From assembly GCA_002451695.1 (NCBI GenBank), contig DKDC01000001.1:19961-83960 (forward strand): a DNA stretch of 64,000 bases, in the 5' to 3' direction. Positions 861 through 57,640 of this stretch are shown here, piece after piece (the stretch's first letter is position 1; each line of letters begins with the position of its first letter). The position numbers and the translations under genes were made by a program. Below the pieces are notes generated by a model, which was not told the origin of the DNA, ran no database searches, and saw only the letters and a list, made by a program, of their open reading frames with translations. The DNA comes from Prevotellaceae bacterium UBA6858. GTDB taxonomy: Bacteria > Bacteroidota > Bacteroidia > Bacteroidales > Bacteroidaceae.

Positions 861-986
861 ATTTGCAACGGCGGGAAAAAGGTCTGATATAGTTTGAATT
901 ATGTCTGATATAATTTTTCCTGCATAGGACATGGTTTTTTCAACATCCGATGTGGTTTTCGCGATTTTTGTTTTGCGCCATTGCAA
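861..986 (+). repeat. Composite intergenic repeat, copy 1 (module A only, degenerate; no palindromic core)
   Basis: ATTTGCAACGGCGGGAAAAAGG is followed by four 21-bp units at 881-964, then the tail GTTTTGCGCCATTGCAA. Homologous to the other copies listed below. Confidence 0.85.
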
Positions 987-9253: not shown

Positions 9254-9474
9254 ATTTGCGACAGTGAAAATTATGTCTGATGTAGTTTGAATTATGTCTG
9301 ATATAATTTTTTCTACATAGGACGTAGTTTTTCCAATGTCCCTTATAGTTTTCGGGATGCTTCGAAAAGAACAAGCGTTCTTGGTTTTGCGGGAATTGTA
9401 GTGGCGCAATTTCTTGAATGATTAATTACTGCGTATTTGTGCGGCGTATTGCATACGCCCCTACGGCGGTGCAA
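9254..9474 (+). repeat. Composite intergenic repeat, copy 2 (module A + core-less arms + one palindrome)
   Basis: Four 21-bp units at 9274-9357. Core-less arms TTGCGGGAATTGTAGTGGCGCAA at 9387-9409. Palindrome GGCGTATTGCATACGCCCCTACGGCGGTGCAA ends at 9474. Confidence 0.9.
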
Positions 9475-9573: not shown

Positions 9574-9591
9574 CACTCGGAAAGCAAACTG

Positions 9592-9675
9592 CTTTCTAAG
9601 GGGTGTCCGTCTTTTTGGGCGGTCTGAGATCATACCCTATAACCTGATCCGGGTAATGCCGGCGTAGGTAGGTGC
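9592..9675 (+). promoter_or_regulatory. TPP (THI-box) riboswitch
   Basis: GGGGTGTCC...CTGAGAT...ACCCTATAACCTGATCCGGGTAATGCCGGCGTAGG matches the conserved THI-box core (CUGAGA ... ACCUGAUCnGGnUAAUGCCnGCG). A small hairpin AAGGATT/AATCCCTT follows. Sits directly upstream of the TonB receptor gene. Confidence 0.9.
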
Positions 9676-9724
9676 AAGGATTATAATCCCTTCTTAATTT
9701 ATTATCAAAAAACAAAGGTGTCAA

Positions 9725-14192: not shown

Positions 14193-14297
14193 CACTTGCA
14201 GCGGCGCAAAAAAGGTCTGATATAATTTTTCCTGCGTCTGATGTAGTTTTTTCCACATAGGACATAGTTTTTGCGGTGTCCTATGCAGTTTTTGCGG
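14193..14297 (+). repeat. Composite intergenic repeat, copy 3 (module A only)
   Basis: CTTGCAGCGGCGCAAAAAAGG plus four exact 21-nt units at 14214-14234, 14235-14255, 14256-14276 and 14277-14297. Confidence 0.9.
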
Positions 14298-20270: not shown

Positions 20271-20534
20271 GTTTGCAAGCGGCTGAAAAAGGTCTGACGT
20301 AGTTTAAATTATGTCTGATACAATTTTTCCTACATCGGACATAGTTTTTCCTACATCAAATGTAGTTTTCGCGCTATTTTGAAAAGAGTGATTATTTTCT
20401 GTTTTGCGCGAAATGTAGGGGCGTATGGCATACGCCCTTCACACCACCGCATGAACCGCACCGCAAACCATCACAACATCATTACAAATTGGCGCAATCC
20501 AGGGCGTATTGCATACGCCCCTACGGCGGTGCAA
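20271..20534 (+). repeat. Composite intergenic repeat, copy 4 (most complete: module A + long module B with two palindromes)
   Basis: Units at 20291-20374. Palindromes GTAGGGGCGTATGGCATACGCCC (20415-20437) and GGGCGTATTGCATACGCCCCTAC (20502-20524), bracketed by TTGCGCG... / ...GGCGGTGCAA. Confidence 0.95.
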
Positions 20535-23999: not shown

Positions 24000-24029
24000 C
24001 GCCACCAACACACAAACTCTCATAAACCA

Positions 24030-24063
24030 ACCGTGTGCGCCGTGAAAGCGCACACGGTTTTTG
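24030..24063 (+). terminator. Rho-independent terminator after the BspA-like gene
   Basis: Stem CCGTGTGCGC / GCGCACACGG followed by TTTTTG. Confidence 0.8.
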
Positions 24064-24256
24064 TTTCATACACACTTCCGCCCGAAACAACAAGCCGCAA
24101 AAAAGAAAGCTACGGTGCAAGAAACACCGTTCCCCACCCCATGCCACTGACAAGTCTTTTCCGAGGCGGCAATCACCGCAAAAAATGTGTAACACATTGA
24201 GTCACAGGAAAATGCTCAAACAAAAGATTTGCGCTATAAGAATTTGTCTTTCAGCG

Positions 24257-24416
24257 GTTTGCAACGGCAGAAAAAAGGTCTGATGTAGTTTGAATTATAT
24301 CTGATGTAATTTTTCCTACGTCCTATGTAGTTTTTCCTACGTCAGAAGTTGTTTTCCCGACTTTGGTTTTGCGTCATTTGCAGGGGCGTATTGCATACGC
24401 CCCTACGGAGGCGCAA
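24257..24416 (+). repeat. Composite intergenic repeat, copy 5 (module A + single 48-bp palindrome)
   Basis: Units at 24277-24360. Palindrome TTGCGTCATTTGCAGGGGCGTATTGCATACGCCCCTACGGAGGCGCAA at 24369-24416. Confidence 0.95.
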
Positions 24417-29591: not shown

Positions 29592-29675
29592 GGGTATAGG
29601 GGCTGTGTCATAAGATATTTGCCGCATTTCCTCACATACGCCAAGCAAATACATAATACACAAGCAGCCAACAAA

Positions 29676-29870
29676 TTGCGCCGCCGTAGGGGCGTATGGC
29701 ATACGCCCCGAGTTGCGCCGATTGGCGATATTGTGGCATCGCTTTGCGATGCGGTTTGTGCGGTGGGGTAAAGGGCGCATGCAATACGCCCCTACAATTT
29801 CCGCAAAACTTGTTCAGACACTCCGCATTCTCTCCTTCCGAAAACTACATCGGACATGGAAAAAACTATG
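29676..29870 (-). repeat. Composite intergenic repeat, copy 6a (reverse orientation; long module B + partial module A)
   Basis: Palindromes at about 29686-29709 and 29772-29796. Reverse-oriented units at 29839-29870. Confidence 0.9.
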
Positions 29871-29931
29871 TCTGATGTAGTATGAATTATGTCTGATATA
29901 ATTTTTTCTACATAGGACATAGTTTTCGCCC
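29869..29931 (+). repeat. Composite intergenic repeat, copy 6b (forward module A, three units, abutting 6a head to head)
   Basis: Units TGTCTGATGTAGTATGAATTA, TGTCTGATATAATTTTTTCTA and CATAGGACATAGTTTTCGCCC. Confidence 0.9.
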
Positions 29932-30114
29932 TTTGCATCATACTGAAAAACAAGACGTTATTCTTCGCACAACCTTACAACGTAAAACTTTGCAATTCAA
30001 GCCTTTACGCTGTTTTGACATTTAGTGGCAACCGCACGAAACACTCCGCCACTCTACCACCCCTAACATTCTGTGGAAATTGAAATCACGACCGCAAGCG
30101 TTGGCGAAAGTGGC

Positions 30115-30146
30115 AAAAAACAGGGCGTGTGCAAATACACACGCCC
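30115..30146 (-). terminator. Rho-independent terminator ending the ftsZ-yqeY transcription unit
   Basis: On the minus strand, stem GGGCGTGTG / CACACGCCC is followed by TGTTTTTT. Confidence 0.75.
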
Positions 30147-30192
30147 ATATTCTTTTACCGTTAAATTATCTGTCAACAAAGCTGGCACGATG

Positions 30193-30211
30193 CGGCGTAT
30201 TGCATACGCCC
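30193..30211. repeat. Solo REP-like hairpin (GGCGTAT-TGC-ATACGCC)
   Basis: Same palindromic core as module B, found without module A, 42 nt downstream of the yqeY stop. Confidence 0.8.
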
Positions 30212-30252
30212 ACCAATCCGTCGCGAAATCAGCGCATGCCCGGTTATGCCTC

Positions 30253-30715: not shown

Positions 30716-32032
30716 TTAGAATTTTATCGCACCCGTGTCCGCCGGTGTCTCCGCGTCATTGGAACGTTCCGCCACCGCGCCGCCGTAGTTTTTCTCGTAT
30801 ATGCGCCGCAACATCGCGCTGCTGCGGTGCGCTGTAGGAGTTTGCTCCACCATTGATATTATGTCATCGTTGTCGATGTCAACGTCGTTGAAACGGAAAA
30901 CATGGTGAGGGCGGCGGTAAGCTCCCGCACGGCTTTTGTCCTCATAGCCGAACTTTTTGCGCCGTTCCGCCTTCTTCTCCTCCTCTTCCGCAGCCTGTGC
31001 CGCCCGTTCCGACTCATCGCCGCCATTGCGTATGAGGTATTCCTCCATATACGGCACATTTGCCAGCCCGAACCCCGAAGCCAGCACAGTAACCTTGACC
31101 TGCTTGCCAAGAGACGGGTCGAAAGCTATGCCCCACTTCACCTCGAAATCCCTGCCGAACTTGCTCATGAAATCATGAACCTCGTTCATTTCCTCCATCG
31201 TGATGGTGTCCTCGTCCTTGTCGGAGCAGTATATGTAAAGCAGCACCTTCTTGGCGTCGAAAATGTCGTTGTTGTTGAGCAGCGGGGAATTGAGCGCATC
31301 GTCTATGGCGCTCTTCACACGAAGTTCGCCCTCGCCTGTACCCGTGCTCATTATGGCAACGCCGCCGTCGCGAAGCACGGTGCACACATCGTTAAAGTCG
31401 AGGTTTATCTTGCCGTGGGTTGTTATAATCTCGGCTATGCTTCTTGCCGCAAGCGTCAGAGTGTCGTCAGCACGGCCGAAAGCGTCGCTGATTGTAAGTT
31501 CCGGGTATATCTCGCGCAAACGCTCGTTGTTGACCACAAGCAAAGCGTCAACATTCTTTGATATGGCCTCCACGCCGTCCAAAGCCTGGTCTATCTTGCG
31601 GTTTCCCTCAAATTGGAATGGAATGGTAACGATGCCAATCGTGAGGATGTTTTTGCTTTTGGCCTCACGCGCTATAATCGGGGCTGCACCTGTACCTGTG
31701 CCGCCGCCCATGCCGGCTGTGATAAACACCATTTTCGTGCCGTCCGAAAGCATCTTGTCGATAGATTCTATGCTCTCCTCCGCCGCATGGCGCGCCTTTT
31801 CGGGGATGTTTCCCGCTCCAAGGCCCTCGCTTCCCAACTGCACCTTAAACTGCACGGGAGAATCGTCCAAAGCCTGCGCGTCCGTGTTGCAAACCACGAA
31901 ACTCACATCGTGTATTCCTGTTTGGTACATATGGTTGACGGCATTCCCGCCGCCGCCGCCAACACCTATTACTTTTATTATATGAGGGTTGCCCGTTCTG
32001 AAGGCAAAGTCAACTATTTGATTATCGTCCAT
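30716..32032 (-). CDS. ftsZ: Cell division GTPase FtsZ (canonical-looking copy, 438 aa)
   Basis: GVGGGGGNA, NTDAQAL, GLGAG, GGGTGTG, PFQFEG and T7 loop NLDFNDV are all present. Long C-terminal linker plus tail motif. Confidence 0.93.
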   Translation of the reverse strand: MDDNQIVDFAFRTGNPHIIKVIGVGGGGGNAVNHMYQTGIHDVSFVVCNTDAQALDDSPVQFKVQLGSEGLGAGNIPEKARHAAEESIESIDKMLSDGTKMVFITAGMGGGTGTGAAPIIAREAKSKNILTIGIVTIPFQFEGNRKIDQALDGVEAISKNVDALLVVNNERLREIYPELTISDAFGRADDTLTLAARSIAEIITTHGKINLDFNDVCTVLRDGGVAIMSTGTGEGELRVKSAIDDALNSPLLNNNDIFDAKKVLLYIYCSDKDEDTITMEEMNEVHDFMSKFGRDFEVKWGIAFDPSLGKQVKVTVLASGFGLANVPYMEEYLIRNGGDESERAAQAAEEEEKKAERRKKFGYEDKSRAGAYRRPHHVFRFNDVDIDNDDIISMVEQTPTAHRSSAMLRRIYEKNYGGAVAERSNDAETPADTGAIKF

Positions 32033-32050
32033 TTTCCTGTGATTTTATAG

Positions 32051-33409
32051 TCAGTTGCCGAAATATATTTTGCCGTTGGCTGAACCCGAATACGCTTCTT
32101 CTGCGTTTTCACGTGCCTCCGTCCCGGCATAATCGTCAGACTGCCGTTGTATATTCTTCAAAGTCTCGTACCTGCGCGATTGCGTGTTGCTGTCCGAAAC
32201 CATGTCAATTACATCTTCGTTGTCGAGGTCACTGTCCGAAAACCTGTAAACAAGGTGGGAACGCCTCTGCCTGCTCATCACCTTGGGGTAGAAAATCTCT
32301 CGGCGGCGGTTGCGCACCTCCTGCACCTCTGGAGACTCTGCACCACTCCCGACAACCTCTGCCGGCAACTCCTGCCGCATATCGTCAGACACATAAGGCT
32401 GGGTTGCCAGTCCGAAGCCAGATGCAAGAATTGTAACCCTTATCTTGCCCCCCATTTCCGGCACATACGCCAGTCCCAGCTTGGTGTCGAACTCCCGGTT
32501 TACAAACTTGTCCATGAACTCATGAAGTTCGCCGGTTTCCTGCATCGTTATGGACTCCTCGTTTTTGTCGGACGTGTATATGGCTATCGTGGCGCGGCGG
32601 GCGTTAAAAATGTCGTTGTCGTTAAGCAACGGCGACTCAATGGCATTCTTTATTGCTTCCGAAACACGGTTCTCACCCTCCGCCTCGCCTGTGCTTATCA
32701 ACGCTATACCGCCATTTTTAAGCACTGTGTTCACATCGTTGAAGTCAAGATTCCAGTGCATCGGCGTTGTTATTATATCTGCAATGCTCTTCACCGCCAC
32801 AAACAACGTGTCATCGGACATCCGCAACGCCTCTATCCAGGTTTTGAACGCGCATATCTCGCAAAGACGCTCGTTGTTGATGACAAGCAGCGAGTCCACG
32901 TATTTTGACAGTTCGTAAACGCCGTCGAGCGCACGGTCTATTCTCAATTCGCGCTCCATGGCAAAAGGAATGGTTACTATGCCCACGGTAAGCATACCCG
33001 CCTTTTTGGCTTCGCGGGCTATTACAGGAGCCGCGCCTGTGCCTGTGCCGCCGCCCATGCCAGCTGTGATGAAAACCATCCGCGTGCCGTCGCAAAACAT
33101 CTTTTGTATCTCGTCAAGACTGTCTTCGGCAATCTTACGCGCCTTTTCGGGATTGCTTCCCGTTCCAAGTCCCTCCGAGCCTAACTGGCGGCGGATTGGC
33201 ACTGGGTTTCTTTCAAGATCCATGCGGTCGGTATTGCAAACCTCGAAACGCACATTGTGAAGTCCTTCTTCGTACATACGGGCAACGGCATTGCCACCGC
33301 CACCGCCAACACCTATCACCTTTATTATGCGGGGGTCGCTTGCAGACACAACCTCGCTTTCCTTTGGCAGGTTAAAATCTATGGTAGCATTGTCTTCTGA
33401 TACGCTCAT
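32051..33409 (-). CDS. Second, diverged FtsZ paralog (452 aa) immediately downstream of ftsA
   Basis: GVGGGGGNA, GGGTGTG and T7 NLDFNDV are retained. NTDRMDL, GLGTG, PFAMER and EALRMSDD deviate from consensus. About 60 percent identity to the downstream copy over the core, by hand alignment. Confidence 0.9.
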   Translation of the reverse strand: MSVSEDNATIDFNLPKESEVVSASDPRIIKVIGVGGGGGNAVARMYEEGLHNVRFEVCNTDRMDLERNPVPIRRQLGSEGLGTGSNPEKARKIAEDSLDEIQKMFCDGTRMVFITAGMGGGTGTGAAPVIAREAKKAGMLTVGIVTIPFAMERELRIDRALDGVYELSKYVDSLLVINNERLCEICAFKTWIEALRMSDDTLFVAVKSIADIITTPMHWNLDFNDVNTVLKNGGIALISTGEAEGENRVSEAIKNAIESPLLNDNDIFNARRATIAIYTSDKNEESITMQETGELHEFMDKFVNREFDTKLGLAYVPEMGGKIRVTILASGFGLATQPYVSDDMRQELPAEVVGSGAESPEVQEVRNRRREIFYPKVMSRQRRSHLVYRFSDSDLDNEDVIDMVSDSNTQSRRYETLKNIQRQSDDYAGTEARENAEEAYSGSANGKIYFGN

Positions 33410-39214: not shown

Positions 39215-39481
39215 TTTTGTTTTTCAAAGGTTTGCAGTTGGCGAAAAAAGGTCTGATGTAGTTTGGATTATGTCTGATGTAATTTTTTCTACATCGGACA
39301 TAGTTTTTCCTGCATCAAATGTAGTTATAGCGGTATTGGTTTTGCACCGTTTGTAGGGGCGTATTGCATTGTCCCATACACCAAACGCACGAGGCACATC
39401 GCCACAAAAGCGAGCCAACTCTGTTTTTATGGCAAATCAGCACAATCCGTGCGTATGCAATAAGCCACTACGGCGGCGCAA
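39215..39481 (+). repeat. Composite intergenic repeat, copy 8 (module A + degenerate long module B)
   Basis: Units at 39250-39333. GTAGGGGCGTATTGCAT... at 39353 and ...GCGTATGCAATAAGCCACTACGGCGGCGCAA ending at 39481. Confidence 0.9.
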
Positions 39482-43393: not shown

Positions 43394-43511
43394 ATTTCTT
43401 AACTCCTTTCGTATATGCTACAGCAAAAGAAATGCCACAGGAGCAAACAAGGCAAACAATCTTCGCCCGCCCGCCCCATGCAAGTGCGCGGAACACAACA
43501 AACCAACGAAC

Positions 43512-43790
43512 TCCACCGCCGTAGGGGCGTATTGCATACGCCAAATATGCGCGGATTTGCAATGCTGCAACGGCGGTTTGCGATGCGGTTCATGCAGATG
43601 CGTACAGGGCGTATGCAATACGCCCCTACAAATGGCGAAAAACCTTAATCGCCCATCCTTTCCCAAACACCGCGAAAATTACATTTGAGGAGGAAAAACT
43701 ACATCGGACGTAGGAAAAATTATTTCAGACATAATCCAAACTACATCAGACCTTTTTTCTCCCCTGCGCAATGCTTTGAAAAACAAACCG
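43512..43790 (-). repeat. Composite intergenic repeat, copy 9 (reverse orientation, module A + long module B)
   Basis: Module B at 43512-43640 (palindromes at about 43520-43542 and 43606-43629). Four units at 43669-43752. Left flank extends to about 43790. Confidence 0.92.
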
Positions 43791-52153: not shown

Positions 52154-52320
52154 TTGCGTTGCCGTATGGGCGTATGGCATACGCCCATACAAACGGCGCA
52201 AAACCCCGAAAACTACATCAGACATAAGAAAAACTACGTCCTATGTAGGAAAAACTACATAGGACGTAGGAAAAATTATATCAGACCTTTTTCAGCCCTT
52301 TGCAAACCTTTGAAAAACAA
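52154..52320 (-). repeat. Composite intergenic repeat, copy 10 (reverse orientation, module A + single 48-bp palindrome)
   Basis: Palindrome TTGCGTTGCCGTATGGGCGTATGGCATACGCCCATACAAACGGCGCAA at 52154-52201. Four units at 52204-52287. Flank extends to 52320. Confidence 0.95.
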
Positions 52321-57438: not shown

Positions 57439-57640
57439 GAATTATGTCTGATATAATTTTTCCTACGTCCGATGTAGTTTTTCCTACATCAAATGTATTT
57501 TTCCGGGTGTTCGGCAAAGGGCAATTGACTTGCGTTTTGCGCCATTTGCCGAACGGTGCAAATACTGGTTAATAGGTTACTGTATATATGTAGGGGCGTA
57601 TTGCATACGCCCTGCACGCCACCGCATGAACCGCATCGCA
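57439..57640 (+). repeat. Composite intergenic repeat, copy 11 (5'-truncated module A + core-less arms + half module B)
   Basis: Three units at 57445-57507. Core-less arms TTGCGCCATTTGCCGAACGGTGCAA at 57537-57561. GTAGGGGCGTATTGCATACGCCC at 57590-57612 followed by CACGCCACCGCATGAACCGCATCGCAAA. Confidence 0.9.

What the first reader, a model, noticed from the sequence alone, without database searches (positions are those of the whole stretch)
24277..24360. Module A is an array of four dyad-symmetric 15-bp boxes phased exactly 21 bp apart
Each 21-bp unit resolves into a hyphenated inverted repeat CTACRT-nnn-AYGTAG followed by a T5-6 C spacer. Examples are CTACATCAAATGTAG+TTTTC and CTACGTCCTATGTAG+TTTTTC.

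In copy 10 two neighbouring cores, 52234-52248 (CTACGTCCTATGTAG) and 52255-52269 (CTACATAGGACGTAG), are exact reverse complements of each other. The A/T spacer keeps one polarity across both, so the functional unit appears to be a symmetric box rather than a simple direct repeat.

The 21-bp spacing equals two helical turns. Four boxes on one DNA face is the geometry of an operator or iteron array for a dimeric DNA-binding protein. If transcribed in the forward sense, each unit would instead form a 6-bp hairpin followed by a U-run, giving a string of weak intrinsic terminators. Neither role can be decided from sequence alone.
Basis: partly seen in the sequence, partly recalled or inferred. Interest (0 to 1): 0.7.

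Follow-up and report, generated by a model that had tools for sequence, protein, structure and literature searches.

The report
Phased palindrome array in dispersed repeat
The 84-bp array is real, but it is one of about ten copies in this window (probably several hundred per genome) of a conserved intergenic repeat found in a small group of uncultured gut Bacteroidales, and it looks like a bent DNA platform for a symmetric DNA-binding protein, not a gene-specific operator, a replication iteron set or a terminator.

Summary
At 24279-24357 a half-box and three 15-bp near-palindromes sit exactly 21 bp apart, separated by T-tracts. Only one box (24316-24330) fits the strict consensus.

It is not a local regulatory site. 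It is the conserved core of a mosaic intergenic repeat: a ~110-nt leader, the array, then an optional GTAG-tagged hairpin. There are 10 copies in 64 kb (~5% of the window). They fill most sizeable intergenic gaps, in either orientation relative to genes and to GC skew. The family occurs in several related gut Bacteroidales assemblies and gut metagenomes. It is absent from phage, plasmid and Rfam collections.

Across hundreds of copies the 21-bp phase holds in 95-98% of neighbouring units. Spacers are A- or T-tracts of either polarity. Between orthologous copies in sister species, 46 of 89 array columns stay 96% identical while variable columns fall to 44%. Whole boxes flip to their reverse complement inside an unchanged frame.

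There is no compensatory covariation, no strand preference, no promoter and no terminator signal. I read it as double-stranded, intrinsically curved architectural DNA that binds a symmetric protein (inferred; binder unknown). The closest analogues are BrickBuilt, BIME and BOX elements.

The parts
24157..24269 (+). Leader of the element. Short conserved islands (AAAAtTGCGTAAC, TTGAnTTTCA, TGTAAs, TTTGTTTTTCA, GTTTGCAA, GGC) sit at fixed spacing in otherwise random sequence.
   Evidence: An nhmmer profile of the leader hits 24172-24276. All 9 hits in the window abut an array. RNAalifold predicts no consensus structure.
24270..24278 (+). A-tract GAAAAAAGG that joins the leader to the array.
   Evidence: Pairwise column identity among copies is about 0.9 or higher.
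24279..24288 (+). Half-box TCTGATGTAG, the right arm of a box.
24289..24294 (+). Spacer 1, TTTGAA.
   Evidence: This is the commonest spacer 1, found in 51 of 92 copies.
24295..24309 (+). Box 2, TTATATCTGATGTAA. T/A-ended variant with 7-1-7 dyad symmetry.
24310..24315 (+). Spacer 2, T-tract TTTTTC.
   Evidence: Spacer 2 is TTTTTT or TTTTTC in 92 of 92 copies.
24316..24330 (+). Box 3, CTACGTCCTATGTAG. The only box in this copy that fits the strict consensus.
24331..24336 (+). Spacer 3, T-tract TTTTTC.
24337..24351 (+). Box 4, CTACGTCAGAAGTTG. Degenerate, with 4 of 6 arm pairs.
   Evidence: Box 4 is the least conserved slot family-wide.
24352..24379 (+). Terminal T-tract TTTTCC plus the short linker CGACTTTGGTTTTGCGTCATTT.
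24380..24416 (+). Module B. A REP-like hairpin GGGGCGTAT-TGC-ATACGCCCC (24383-24403) with flanks GCAG... and ...CTACGGAGGCGCAA.
   Evidence: Repeat families D5 and D9. The longer REPIN-like doublet forms are shown.
883..961 (+). Other array copy, with leader.
9276..9354 (+). Other array copy, with leader. It lies upstream of a TPP riboswitch.
14216..14294 (+). Other array copy, with leader.
20293..20371 (+). Other array copy, with leader and a REPIN-like module B.
29840..29922 (-). Other array copy in a complex locus that also has an inverted partial unit and REPINs.
39252..39330 (+). Other array copy, with leader.
43672..43750 (-). Other array copy, with leader and REPIN.
52209..52287 (-). 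Its neighbouring boxes are exact reverse complements. The locus is orthologous to L034.
57447..57525 (+). Other array copy, without a leader.

Best explanation
The array is the conserved core of an old, lineage-restricted, very abundant mosaic intergenic repeat: leader, then array, then an optional REP/REPIN-like hairpin module.

I propose that it acts as double-stranded DNA. Three and a half near-palindromic 15-bp boxes (consensus YTAYRTC-N-GAYRTAR) are separated by 6-bp A/T-tracts. This places every box on the same helical face of an intrinsically curved ~90-bp segment. A symmetric (dimeric) protein could then bind cooperatively and wrap or bridge the DNA. The binder could be a nucleoid-associated or architectural protein, or the recombination protein that once spread the element.

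Copies sit one per gap in most gaps between transcription units, so the likely role is architectural, for example marking or insulating unit boundaries. It is unlikely to regulate a particular gene.

The array changes by three routes: transitions at four arm positions, inversion of whole boxes or spacers (replication template switching at quasi-palindromes), and gain or loss of whole 21-bp units. All three preserve the phase.

Shown here: the repeat family, the phasing, position-specific conservation, orientation independence, box flips, and the absence of RNA-type signals.

Inferred: protein binding, bending, and any benefit to the host.
For: 1. Dispersed family.
- 10 arrays in 64 kb, taking about 5% of the window.
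- Found in three further species-level assemblies and many gut metagenome contigs.

2. Strict phase.
- 344 of 363 neighbouring units are 21 bp apart.
- 314 of 321 in the metagenome loci.
- 88 of 95 arrays have the same number of boxes.

3. Spacers are A/T-tracts whatever the strand.
- 87% are homopolymeric tracts: 140 T-tracts and 134 A-tracts.
- They are 90% A+T against 52% for the surrounding loci.
- A sub-family runs A5-box-A6-box-T6-box-T5.

4. Predicted curvature. Arrays fall in the most curved 0.1-2% of 105-bp windows.

5. Constraint in place.
- Mean pairwise column identity is 0.82 in arrays. Non-motif leader columns score 0.2-0.35, close to random.
- Between 8 orthologous pairs, family-conserved array columns are 96% identical and variable columns 44%. 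Upstream flanks of 7 of these pairs average 84%.

6. Orientation-free boxes. 6 of 27 orthologous boxes are reverse complements inside the same frame.

7. No polarity.
- Gene contexts: 28 convergent, 22 and 18 tandem, 12 divergent.
- Top strand is the G-rich strand in 86 arrays and the C-rich strand in 90, P=0.82.

8. Even spacing, and no two arrays close together.
- Spacing in the window has CV 0.32, P about 5e-4.
- No neighbouring arrays lie closer than 1.5 kb, against 16.8 expected.

9. Template switching between short inverted repeats is a documented cause of spacer and loop inversion (PMC8604942, PMC8794818).
Against: - No binding protein is identified, and nothing here shows binding or bending.
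- The curvature calculation uses wedge parameters that I recalled from memory.
- Short-tract gene conversion among several hundred copies could produce the conservation without any selection.
- The element could be purely selfish. Even spacing could then reflect saturation of the tolerated sites.
- The dyad is imperfect. The 5-11 pair is almost never Watson-Crick in boxes 2 and 3. A strictly symmetric reader would have to tolerate Y/R degeneracy there.
- Orthologous pairs were found only among loci already selected for carrying arrays.
Confidence: 0.5

Rival explanations
1. A selfish non-autonomous mobile element, that is a cluster of mini-REPs or a MITE. The boxes would be hairpins recognised in single-stranded DNA by a trans-acting HUH/RAYT-like or other transposase. 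There would be no host function.
For: - Every box is bounded by CTAC...GTAG, and the adjacent module B is a GTAG-tagged hairpin that forms REPIN-like doublets. GTAG REPs are linked to RAYT transposases, and tandem REP clusters are known (PMC3733652).
- Module B and the leader are gained or lost between orthologous loci.
- Box flips imply that hairpins do form.
- Copy number is very high, and sites next to gene 3' ends are favoured.
Against: - No Y1 transposase was found by tblastn in 1.66 Mb of held DNA. This is a weak negative because the query was recalled from memory.
- There is no orientation bias relative to GC skew, 86 against 90. IS200/IS605-type elements, which insert into the lagging-strand template (PMC6006769), would be expected to show one.
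- Arrays sit at the same loci in species about 10% diverged.
- Neutral decay of dead copies would not leave single conserved columns beside saturated ones.
- In the boxes GTAG is part of the stem. In REPs it is an unpaired tag.
Confidence: 0.2
2. An old repeat with no present function. Its uniformity would be kept up by frequent short-tract gene conversion and template switching among several hundred copies.
For: - Orthologous arrays are no more alike (0.80) than random paralogous arrays (0.82).
- Whole boxes are replaced or flipped between orthologues.
Against: - In the leader, conserved and random columns alternate at single-nucleotide scale. Conversion tracts would homogenise neighbouring columns too.
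- The unit number is fixed in 88 of 95 arrays.
- About 5% of a compact genome is retained.
Confidence: 0.2
3. An RNA-level element. Each unit would form a small hairpin followed by a U-run (weak terminators or insulators), or the whole array would fold into one long hairpin inside a transcript or small RNA.
For: - The + strand of this copy folds to -35.1 kcal/mol, z = -4.25, as one nested hairpin. The - strand gives z = -1.35.
- T-runs follow the boxes in the canonical orientation.
Against: - No covariation for local or long-range pairs on either strand. Observed pairing equals the shuffled control.
- G-U-type pairs are equally frequent on both strands.
- Box 3 usually has two A-C mismatches on the T-run strand.
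- Orientation relative to genes is random.
- Spacer polarity flips in relatives.
- The terminator scan is negative and there are no Rfam hits.
- No Bacteroidetes promoter consensus is conserved.
- This copy lies downstream of a real terminator, between convergent genes.
Confidence: 0.06
4. A classical operator array for a local regulator, or an iteron set of a replicon or integrated element.
For: 21-bp direct phasing of dyad boxes is typical of iterons and of some operators.
Against: - Ten copies in 64 kb of housekeeping chromosome.
- No adjacent rep or regulator gene, and no solitary boxes.
- No phage, plasmid or viral matches.
Confidence: 0.02

Closest known systems
BrickBuilt MITE of Porphyromonas gingivalis (Klein et al. 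2015, PMC4596501)
   Same: - Host order is also Bacteroidales.
- Strictly intergenic and modular: a leader, then spacer-less tandem repeats of about two helical turns (23 nt), then a tail.
[quoted passage not shown]
- No Rfam match, and confined to a narrow host range.
   Different: - BrickBuilt has 1 to 22.8 repeats per copy and 19 copies per genome. Here the unit number is almost fixed (88 of 95) and density is about 1 per 6 kb.
- BrickBuilt has IS5-type terminal inverted repeats, GAGACCTTTGCA. Here only an internal AGACCTTT at the leader-array junction resembles them.
- BrickBuilt carries promoters. None is conserved here.
- The period is 21 nt here, not 23, and the units are dyad boxes plus A/T-tracts.
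E. coli BIMEs: REP mosaics, including IHF-binding RIB/RIP and gyrase-binding forms (my own knowledge, plus PMC3733652 and PMC3116915)
   Same: - A mosaic of palindromic units and conserved linkers in extragenic DNA.
- Commonly found at gene 3' ends, in several hundred copies.
- Bound by architectural proteins.
- GTAG-tagged hairpins (module B here) form inverted doublets.
   Different: - There is no sequence relationship.
- BIMEs have no 21-bp phased array of short dyad boxes with A-tract spacers.
- GTAG REPs were not reported in Bacteroidetes in the 2013 survey.
- No RAYT gene was found here.
Pneumococcal BOX elements, boxA-(boxB)n-boxC (my own knowledge, plus the review PMC10969869)
   Same: A modular dispersed intergenic repeat with a tandemly repeated central module flanked by distinct end modules. 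Elements cluster with other repeats.
   Different: - boxB is 45 nt, varies in number and is not a dyad box.
- BOX elements are thought to act as RNA structures.
- The host phylum is different.
Plasmid and phage iterons, and centromere-like repeat arrays (my own knowledge)
   Same: Units of 19-22 bp, directly phased on one helical face and bound cooperatively by dimeric proteins. This is how I think the array works.
   Different: Those arrays occur once per replicon, next to a rep or par gene. This one occurs several hundred times in chromosomal intergenic gaps.

Membership tests
MITE | Short, non-coding, multi-copy and intergenic | tested here: met
   Elements are about 200-580 bp. There are 10 copies in 64 kb, all intergenic.
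MITE | Terminal inverted repeats that match an autonomous IS | tested here: inconclusive
   The only candidates are weak inverted words, CACCGCC / GGCGGTG, near the outer ends (read). No parent IS was seen in the 1.66 Mb of DNA held, which was not scanned systematically for IS elements.
MITE | Target-site duplications and insertion polymorphism | tested here: inconclusive
   This copy is identical across 8 strain assemblies. Arrays are shared at orthologous loci. Only the leader and module B show presence/absence. Target-site duplications were not resolved.
REP/REPIN-RAYT system | Short hairpin with an unpaired 5' GTAG tag, often in inverted doublets | tested here: inconclusive
   Module B meets this: TGTAG-GGGCGTAT-TGC-ATACGCCC, with doublets. 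The array boxes do not, because their GTAG/CTAC forms the stem itself.
REP/REPIN-RAYT system | A single-copy RAYT (Y1 HUH transposase) gene flanked by the REPs | tested here: inconclusive
   tblastn with an IS608-like TnpA sequence recalled from memory found nothing in 0.77 Mb and then 1.66 Mb. The genome is only partly sampled.
BrickBuilt-type minisatellite MITE | Leader, spacer-less tandem repeats and tail, all intergenic | tested here: met
   compared with PMC4596501.
BrickBuilt-type minisatellite MITE | Highly variable repeat number, and IS5-like terminal repeats GAGACCTTTGCA | tested here: not met
   88 of 95 arrays have the same box number. No such terminal repeats are present at the outer ends.
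Iterons of a replicon | Directly phased 17-22-bp repeats | tested here: met
   21-bp phase.
Iterons of a replicon | A single locus next to a rep gene or origin on a plasmid or phage | tested here: not met
   Ten chromosomal copies lie among housekeeping genes. There are no plasmid or phage matches.
Operator array | Lies in the promoter region of the regulated or regulator gene, with consistent orientation | tested here: not met
   Convergent gaps are the commonest context and orientation is unbiased. This copy lies between two gene 3' ends.
Intrinsic terminators | Stable G+C-rich stem followed by a U-run on the transcribed strand downstream of a gene | tested here: not met
   The scan finds none in the array. 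Stems are 6 bp, A/T-rich and often mismatched. Orientation and spacer polarity are not fixed.
Structured RNA family | Compensatory covariation, or a match to a curated model | tested here: not met
   No covariation. RNAalifold predicts 0 pairs for the leader. Rfam is negative.
CRISPR array or Cas12a-type repeat | Repeats separated by unique spacers of 25-40 nt, with cas genes nearby | tested here: not met
   Spacers are 6-nt A/T-tracts. No Cas12a-type repeat occurs in the held DNA.

The most novel reading that the evidence does not exclude
The several hundred arrays would be the genome-wide binding sites of a still unidentified lineage-specific chromosome-organising protein. Each would be a curved, four-site platform placed once in most gaps between transcription units. 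Together they would act as topological or transcriptional boundary elements and be maintained by purifying selection. That would amount to a bacterial insulator system built from a domesticated repeat.
Probability: 0.15. Interest if true: 0.8.

Novelty: new variant of a known kind. Interest (0 to 1): 0.55.

Why it matters
Dispersed intergenic repeats such as REP/BIME, BOX, Correia and BrickBuilt are known, but their functions remain debated.

This family is unusual in four ways:
- it takes about 5% of the window;
- it occupies most sizeable intergenic gaps, one copy per gap;
- half of the array positions stay nearly invariant over a period in which neighbouring positions have randomised;
- its strict two-helical-turn architecture tolerates inversion of its boxes and of its A/T-tracts.

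That combination points to a DNA-level architectural role. It also gives a clean, testable system: a 90-bp probe and several hundred genomic sites in a gut bacterium. With it one could ask whether such repeats are parasites or chromosome-organising elements.

On the practical side, these arrays break short-read assemblies of this lineage. Contig ends and N-gaps fall inside them.

Tried and rejected
- **Rfam.** The gathering scan of the window and the E-value scan of the locus gave only a sub-threshold sucC hit, E=2.
- **Phage, plasmid and viral-contig searches.** None found the element itself.
- **One viral hit to the three-box pattern**. It sat next to a putative winged-helix gene and looked like a real operator. 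With more flank, the 21-nt repeats proved to encode DVKDTTS x4 at the C-terminus of a 415-aa ORF. tblastn of the winged-helix protein against the held DNA was negative. Rejected.
- **Other non-family hits in the metagenome scan** (marine, freshwater). They appear to be coding heptad repeats or AT-rich satellites.
- **Resemblance to the Cas12a crRNA handle** (TTTC-CTAC...GTAG), recalled from memory. No such CRISPR repeat occurs in the held DNA.
- **Bacteroidetes promoter consensus** (TTTG ... TAnnTTTG), recalled from memory. Not conserved anywhere in the element. Only box 4 gives TACATTTG on the reverse strand, in 19 of 87 copies, with no -33 partner.
- **Sigma-70 promoter and terminator scan.** Negative within the element.
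- **RAYT/IS200-type transposase.** Not found.
- **Similarity of AAAGGTCT to the IS5/BrickBuilt terminal repeat.** The sequence is internal here, not terminal, so I treated it as coincidence.
- **Strain-level variation at this copy.** None. Eight assemblies are identical apart from N-gaps.
- **Hairpin flanking GTAA in the leader.** It looked compensatory by eye, but RNAalifold did not support it.
- **CpG decay as the cause of the Y/R variation.** The genome shows no CpG depletion (O/E 1.18; ACGT 0.78). Left open.
- **Replication-strand bias.** None. GC skew does not change sign across the window.

Full report
**1. What is at the coordinates**

Reading the sequence gives the following, all on the + strand:
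- GAAAAAAGG, 24270-24278
- half-box TCTGATGTAG, 24279-24288
- TTTGAA
- TTATATCTGATGTAA, 24295-24309
- TTTTTC
- CTACGTCCTATGTAG, 24316-24330
- TTTTTC
- CTACGTCAGAAGTTG, 24337-24351
- TTTTCC

Box starts are exactly 21 bp apart. The second is a T/A-ended variant. The fourth is degenerate. The first is a half-site.

The strict pattern occurs 7 times in the window against 0.00 expected. The copy-10 statement is correct. A 7-1-7 version, YTAYRTC-N-GAYRTAR, with one mismatch allowed gives 23 hits against 0.24 expected. All of them lie inside arrays and none is solitary.

**2. It is one copy of a dispersed mosaic element**

Repeat finding and manual parsing show 10 arrays in 64 kb. Seven are on the + strand and three on the - strand.

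The canonical element has these parts:
- A leader of about 110 nt. It carries short conserved islands (AAAAtTGCGTAAC; TTGAnTTTCA; TGTAAs; TTTGTTTTTCA; GTTTGCAA; GGCGAAAAAAGG) at fixed spacing in otherwise random sequence.
- The array: half-box, TTTGAA, TTATGTCTGATATAA, TTTTTY, CTACATAGGACATAG, TTTTTC, CTACATCnnATGTAG, TTTTCG.
- Often a linker and module B. Module B is a GTAG-tagged hairpin, TGTAG-GGGCGTAT-TGC-ATACGCCC, single or as a REPIN-like inverted doublet.

A leader profile finds 9 hits in the window, and every one abuts an array. 88 of 95 arrays have three full boxes. Together the elements occupy about 3.2 kb, roughly 5% of the window.

**3. Host and distribution**

Flanking genes are ordinary Bacteroidales housekeeping genes: gdh, a BspA-type LRR protein, aroC, recF, ruvA, sprA, and a TonB receptor behind a TPP riboswitch. 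Identical proteins occur in UBA-series MAGs and in metagenome assemblies from ENA, JGI and Logan.

- 'Prevotellaceae bacterium UBA6398';
- a Hadza 'Bacteroidaceae' MAG;
- a bin titled Oscillospiraceae, whose contigs are 94% identical to this window.

A metagenome scan found it in many contigs, several of them labelled human gut metagenome, with 40-55% G+C. It is absent from the phage, plasmid and viral-contig collections and from Rfam.

**4. Phase, boxes and spacers across the family**

- With a unit weight matrix, successive units are 21 bp apart in 344 of 363 cases, 42 bp in 18 and 17 bp in 1.
- In the metagenome loci, 314 of 321 neighbouring boxes are 21 bp apart. These loci were fetched with a pattern that required three phased boxes, so the figure is partly guaranteed by selection.
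- Arm positions 1-3, 6, 10 and 13-15 are nearly invariant. Positions 4, 5, 11 and 12 vary only by transitions. The centre differs between slots.
- 87% of spacers are homopolymeric A- or T-tracts, 90% A+T against 52% for the loci. Both polarities occur, and one sub-family reads A5-box-A6-box-T6-box-T5.
- A wedge-model calculation puts the arrays among the most curved 0.1-2% of 105-bp windows. I recalled the wedge parameters from memory, so the result is indicative only.

**5.

*Covariation.* For the three local hairpins, 85% of arm pairs are Watson-Crick or wobble. Shuffling partners between copies gives 87%. G-U-type pairs are 12.7% on one strand and 12.3% on the other. The long nested hairpin that RNAfold draws for this copy (-35.1 kcal/mol, z = -4.25 on +; z = -1.35 on -) also shows no excess over shuffles. 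In boxes 2 and 3 the 5-11 pair is Watson-Crick in only 11 and 2 of 92 copies. So the dyad is a property of the consensus and is not maintained by compensatory change. No strand is favoured.

*Orientation.*
- Relative to flanking genes: 28 convergent, 22 and 18 tandem, 12 divergent.
- Relative to local GC skew: 86 against 90.

*Promoters and terminators.* No Bacteroidetes promoter consensus is conserved. The terminator scan finds only the upstream gene's own terminator, at 24029-24059.

**6. Evolution at orthologous loci**

Nine locus pairs between species are orthologous by both flanks, with flank identity of 76-94%. Arrays are present at the same sites, so the insertions are old and vertically inherited.

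Within them:
- 6 of 27 boxes are reverse complements of their orthologue inside an unchanged frame. The clearest case is TTATGTCTGATATAA against TTATATCAGACATAA, 15 of 15 as reverse complement.
- One spacer is inverted (tttcga against aaaaaa).
- One array has gained a whole unit.
- One leader is deleted between TTGCA repeats.
- Interval lengths differ by roughly 110-320 bp in four pairs. In the pairs I inspected directly, the difference is presence or absence of module B.

Family-conserved array columns (46 of 89) are 96% identical between orthologues. Family-variable columns are 44% identical, and the upstream flanks of 7 of the pairs average 84%. Orthologous arrays as wholes (0.80) are no more alike than random paralogues (0.82). 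The variable positions are therefore saturated and the rest are held.

Template switching at short inverted repeats is a documented source of such loop and spacer inversions (PMC8604942, PMC8794818). This copy is identical in eight strain assemblies, apart from N-gaps that fall inside the array.

**7. Placement**

- Spacing in the window is 4.0-9.4 kb, CV 0.32. This gives P about 5e-4 against both random positions and random gene junctions.
- In 40 other loci no two arrays lie closer than 1.5 kb, against 16.8 expected under a uniform null.
- By my reading of the gene map, about 10 of 14 sizeable intergenic gaps carry exactly one element.

**8. Interpretation**

The RNA, terminator, operator and iteron readings each fail direct tests (sections 5 and 7).

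The following features fit recognition of double-stranded DNA by a symmetric protein on a curved platform:
- position-specific conservation;
- a fixed unit number;
- a strict two-turn phase;
- A/T-tracts on either strand;
- indifference to box orientation, to gene direction and to replication strand.

An architectural role at boundaries between transcription units is plausible. Binding, bending and host benefit are all inferences.

Two rivals remain open:
- a selfish REP-like cluster mobilised through single-stranded hairpins, favoured by the CTAC/GTAG ends and the neighbouring GTAG REPINs;
- a functionless relic homogenised by gene conversion.

**9. Comparison with known systems**

The nearest described element is BrickBuilt of P. 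gingivalis, which has a leader, 23-nt spacer-less repeats and a tail (PMC4596501). It differs in having a variable repeat number, IS5-type terminal repeats, a low copy number and promoter activity.

E. coli BIMEs and pneumococcal BOX elements are functional and architectural analogues without sequence relationship.

Module B resembles GTAG REPs. The 2013 survey did not report these in Bacteroidetes (PMC3733652).

I file the array as a new variant of the known class of mosaic intergenic repeats.

Noticed in passing
window 20413-20533, 29641-29809, 43476-43643, 24380-24416 and others: Module B is a GTAG-tagged hairpin with an 8-bp stem (TGTAG-GGGCGTAT-TGC-ATACGCCC). It often forms REPIN-like inverted doublets of about 170 nt. 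It is present or absent between orthologous loci. The 2013 survey did not report GTAG-type REPs in Bacteroidetes (PMC3733652).
   Followed up: partly
whole window: CTAG is almost absent: 2 occurrences counting both strands, observed/expected 0.02. GATC is strongly depleted, observed/expected 0.22. This probably reflects restriction avoidance.
   Followed up: no
whole window; loci L005-L097: The elements are evenly spaced: 4.0-9.4 kb apart, CV 0.32, P about 5e-4. Elsewhere no two arrays lie closer than 1.5 kb. About 10 of 14 sizeable intergenic gaps hold exactly one element.
   Followed up: partly
L007, L051 and other CAVCON01 loci: The MAG titled 'Oscillospiraceae bacterium H07624-L1_cleanbin_000029' has contigs 94% identical to this Bacteroidales window. 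The bin is probably mislabelled or chimeric.
   Followed up: no
L102 and L103, orthologous to window 24300-24325: The UBA MAG scaffolds carry runs of N exactly inside the array, and many contigs of related MAGs end in arrays. The repeat breaks short-read assemblies.
   Followed up: no
L004:2018-2587, beside the copy orthologous to window 52209-52287: One strain assembly has an extra 189-aa DUF5025 gene between the HAD hydrolase and ruvA, next to the array, and a different tail after the array.
   Followed up: no
window 29641-30224: A complex locus. It holds a REPIN doublet, an inverted partial array unit, a minus-strand array with its leader, and a further REP about 270 nt away.
   Followed up: partly
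window 9589-9685: A TPP riboswitch upstream of a TonB-dependent receptor gene. One copy of the element lies immediately 5' of it.
   Followed up: no
window 31502-33339: Direct repeats with a 1347-bp offset (families D6, D11, D13; 72-80% identity). They correspond to two adjacent paralogous minus-strand genes, 30716-32032 and 32051-33409.
   Followed up: no
L108 and L180 (IMGVR_UViG_3300009152_000182): A viral contig carries 4 x 21 bp of TTACATCTGACGTAGTATCTT, which mimics the array. The repeats encode DVKDTTS x4 at the C-terminus of a 415-aa ORF, near a TET/JBP-family dioxygenase gene.
   Followed up: yes
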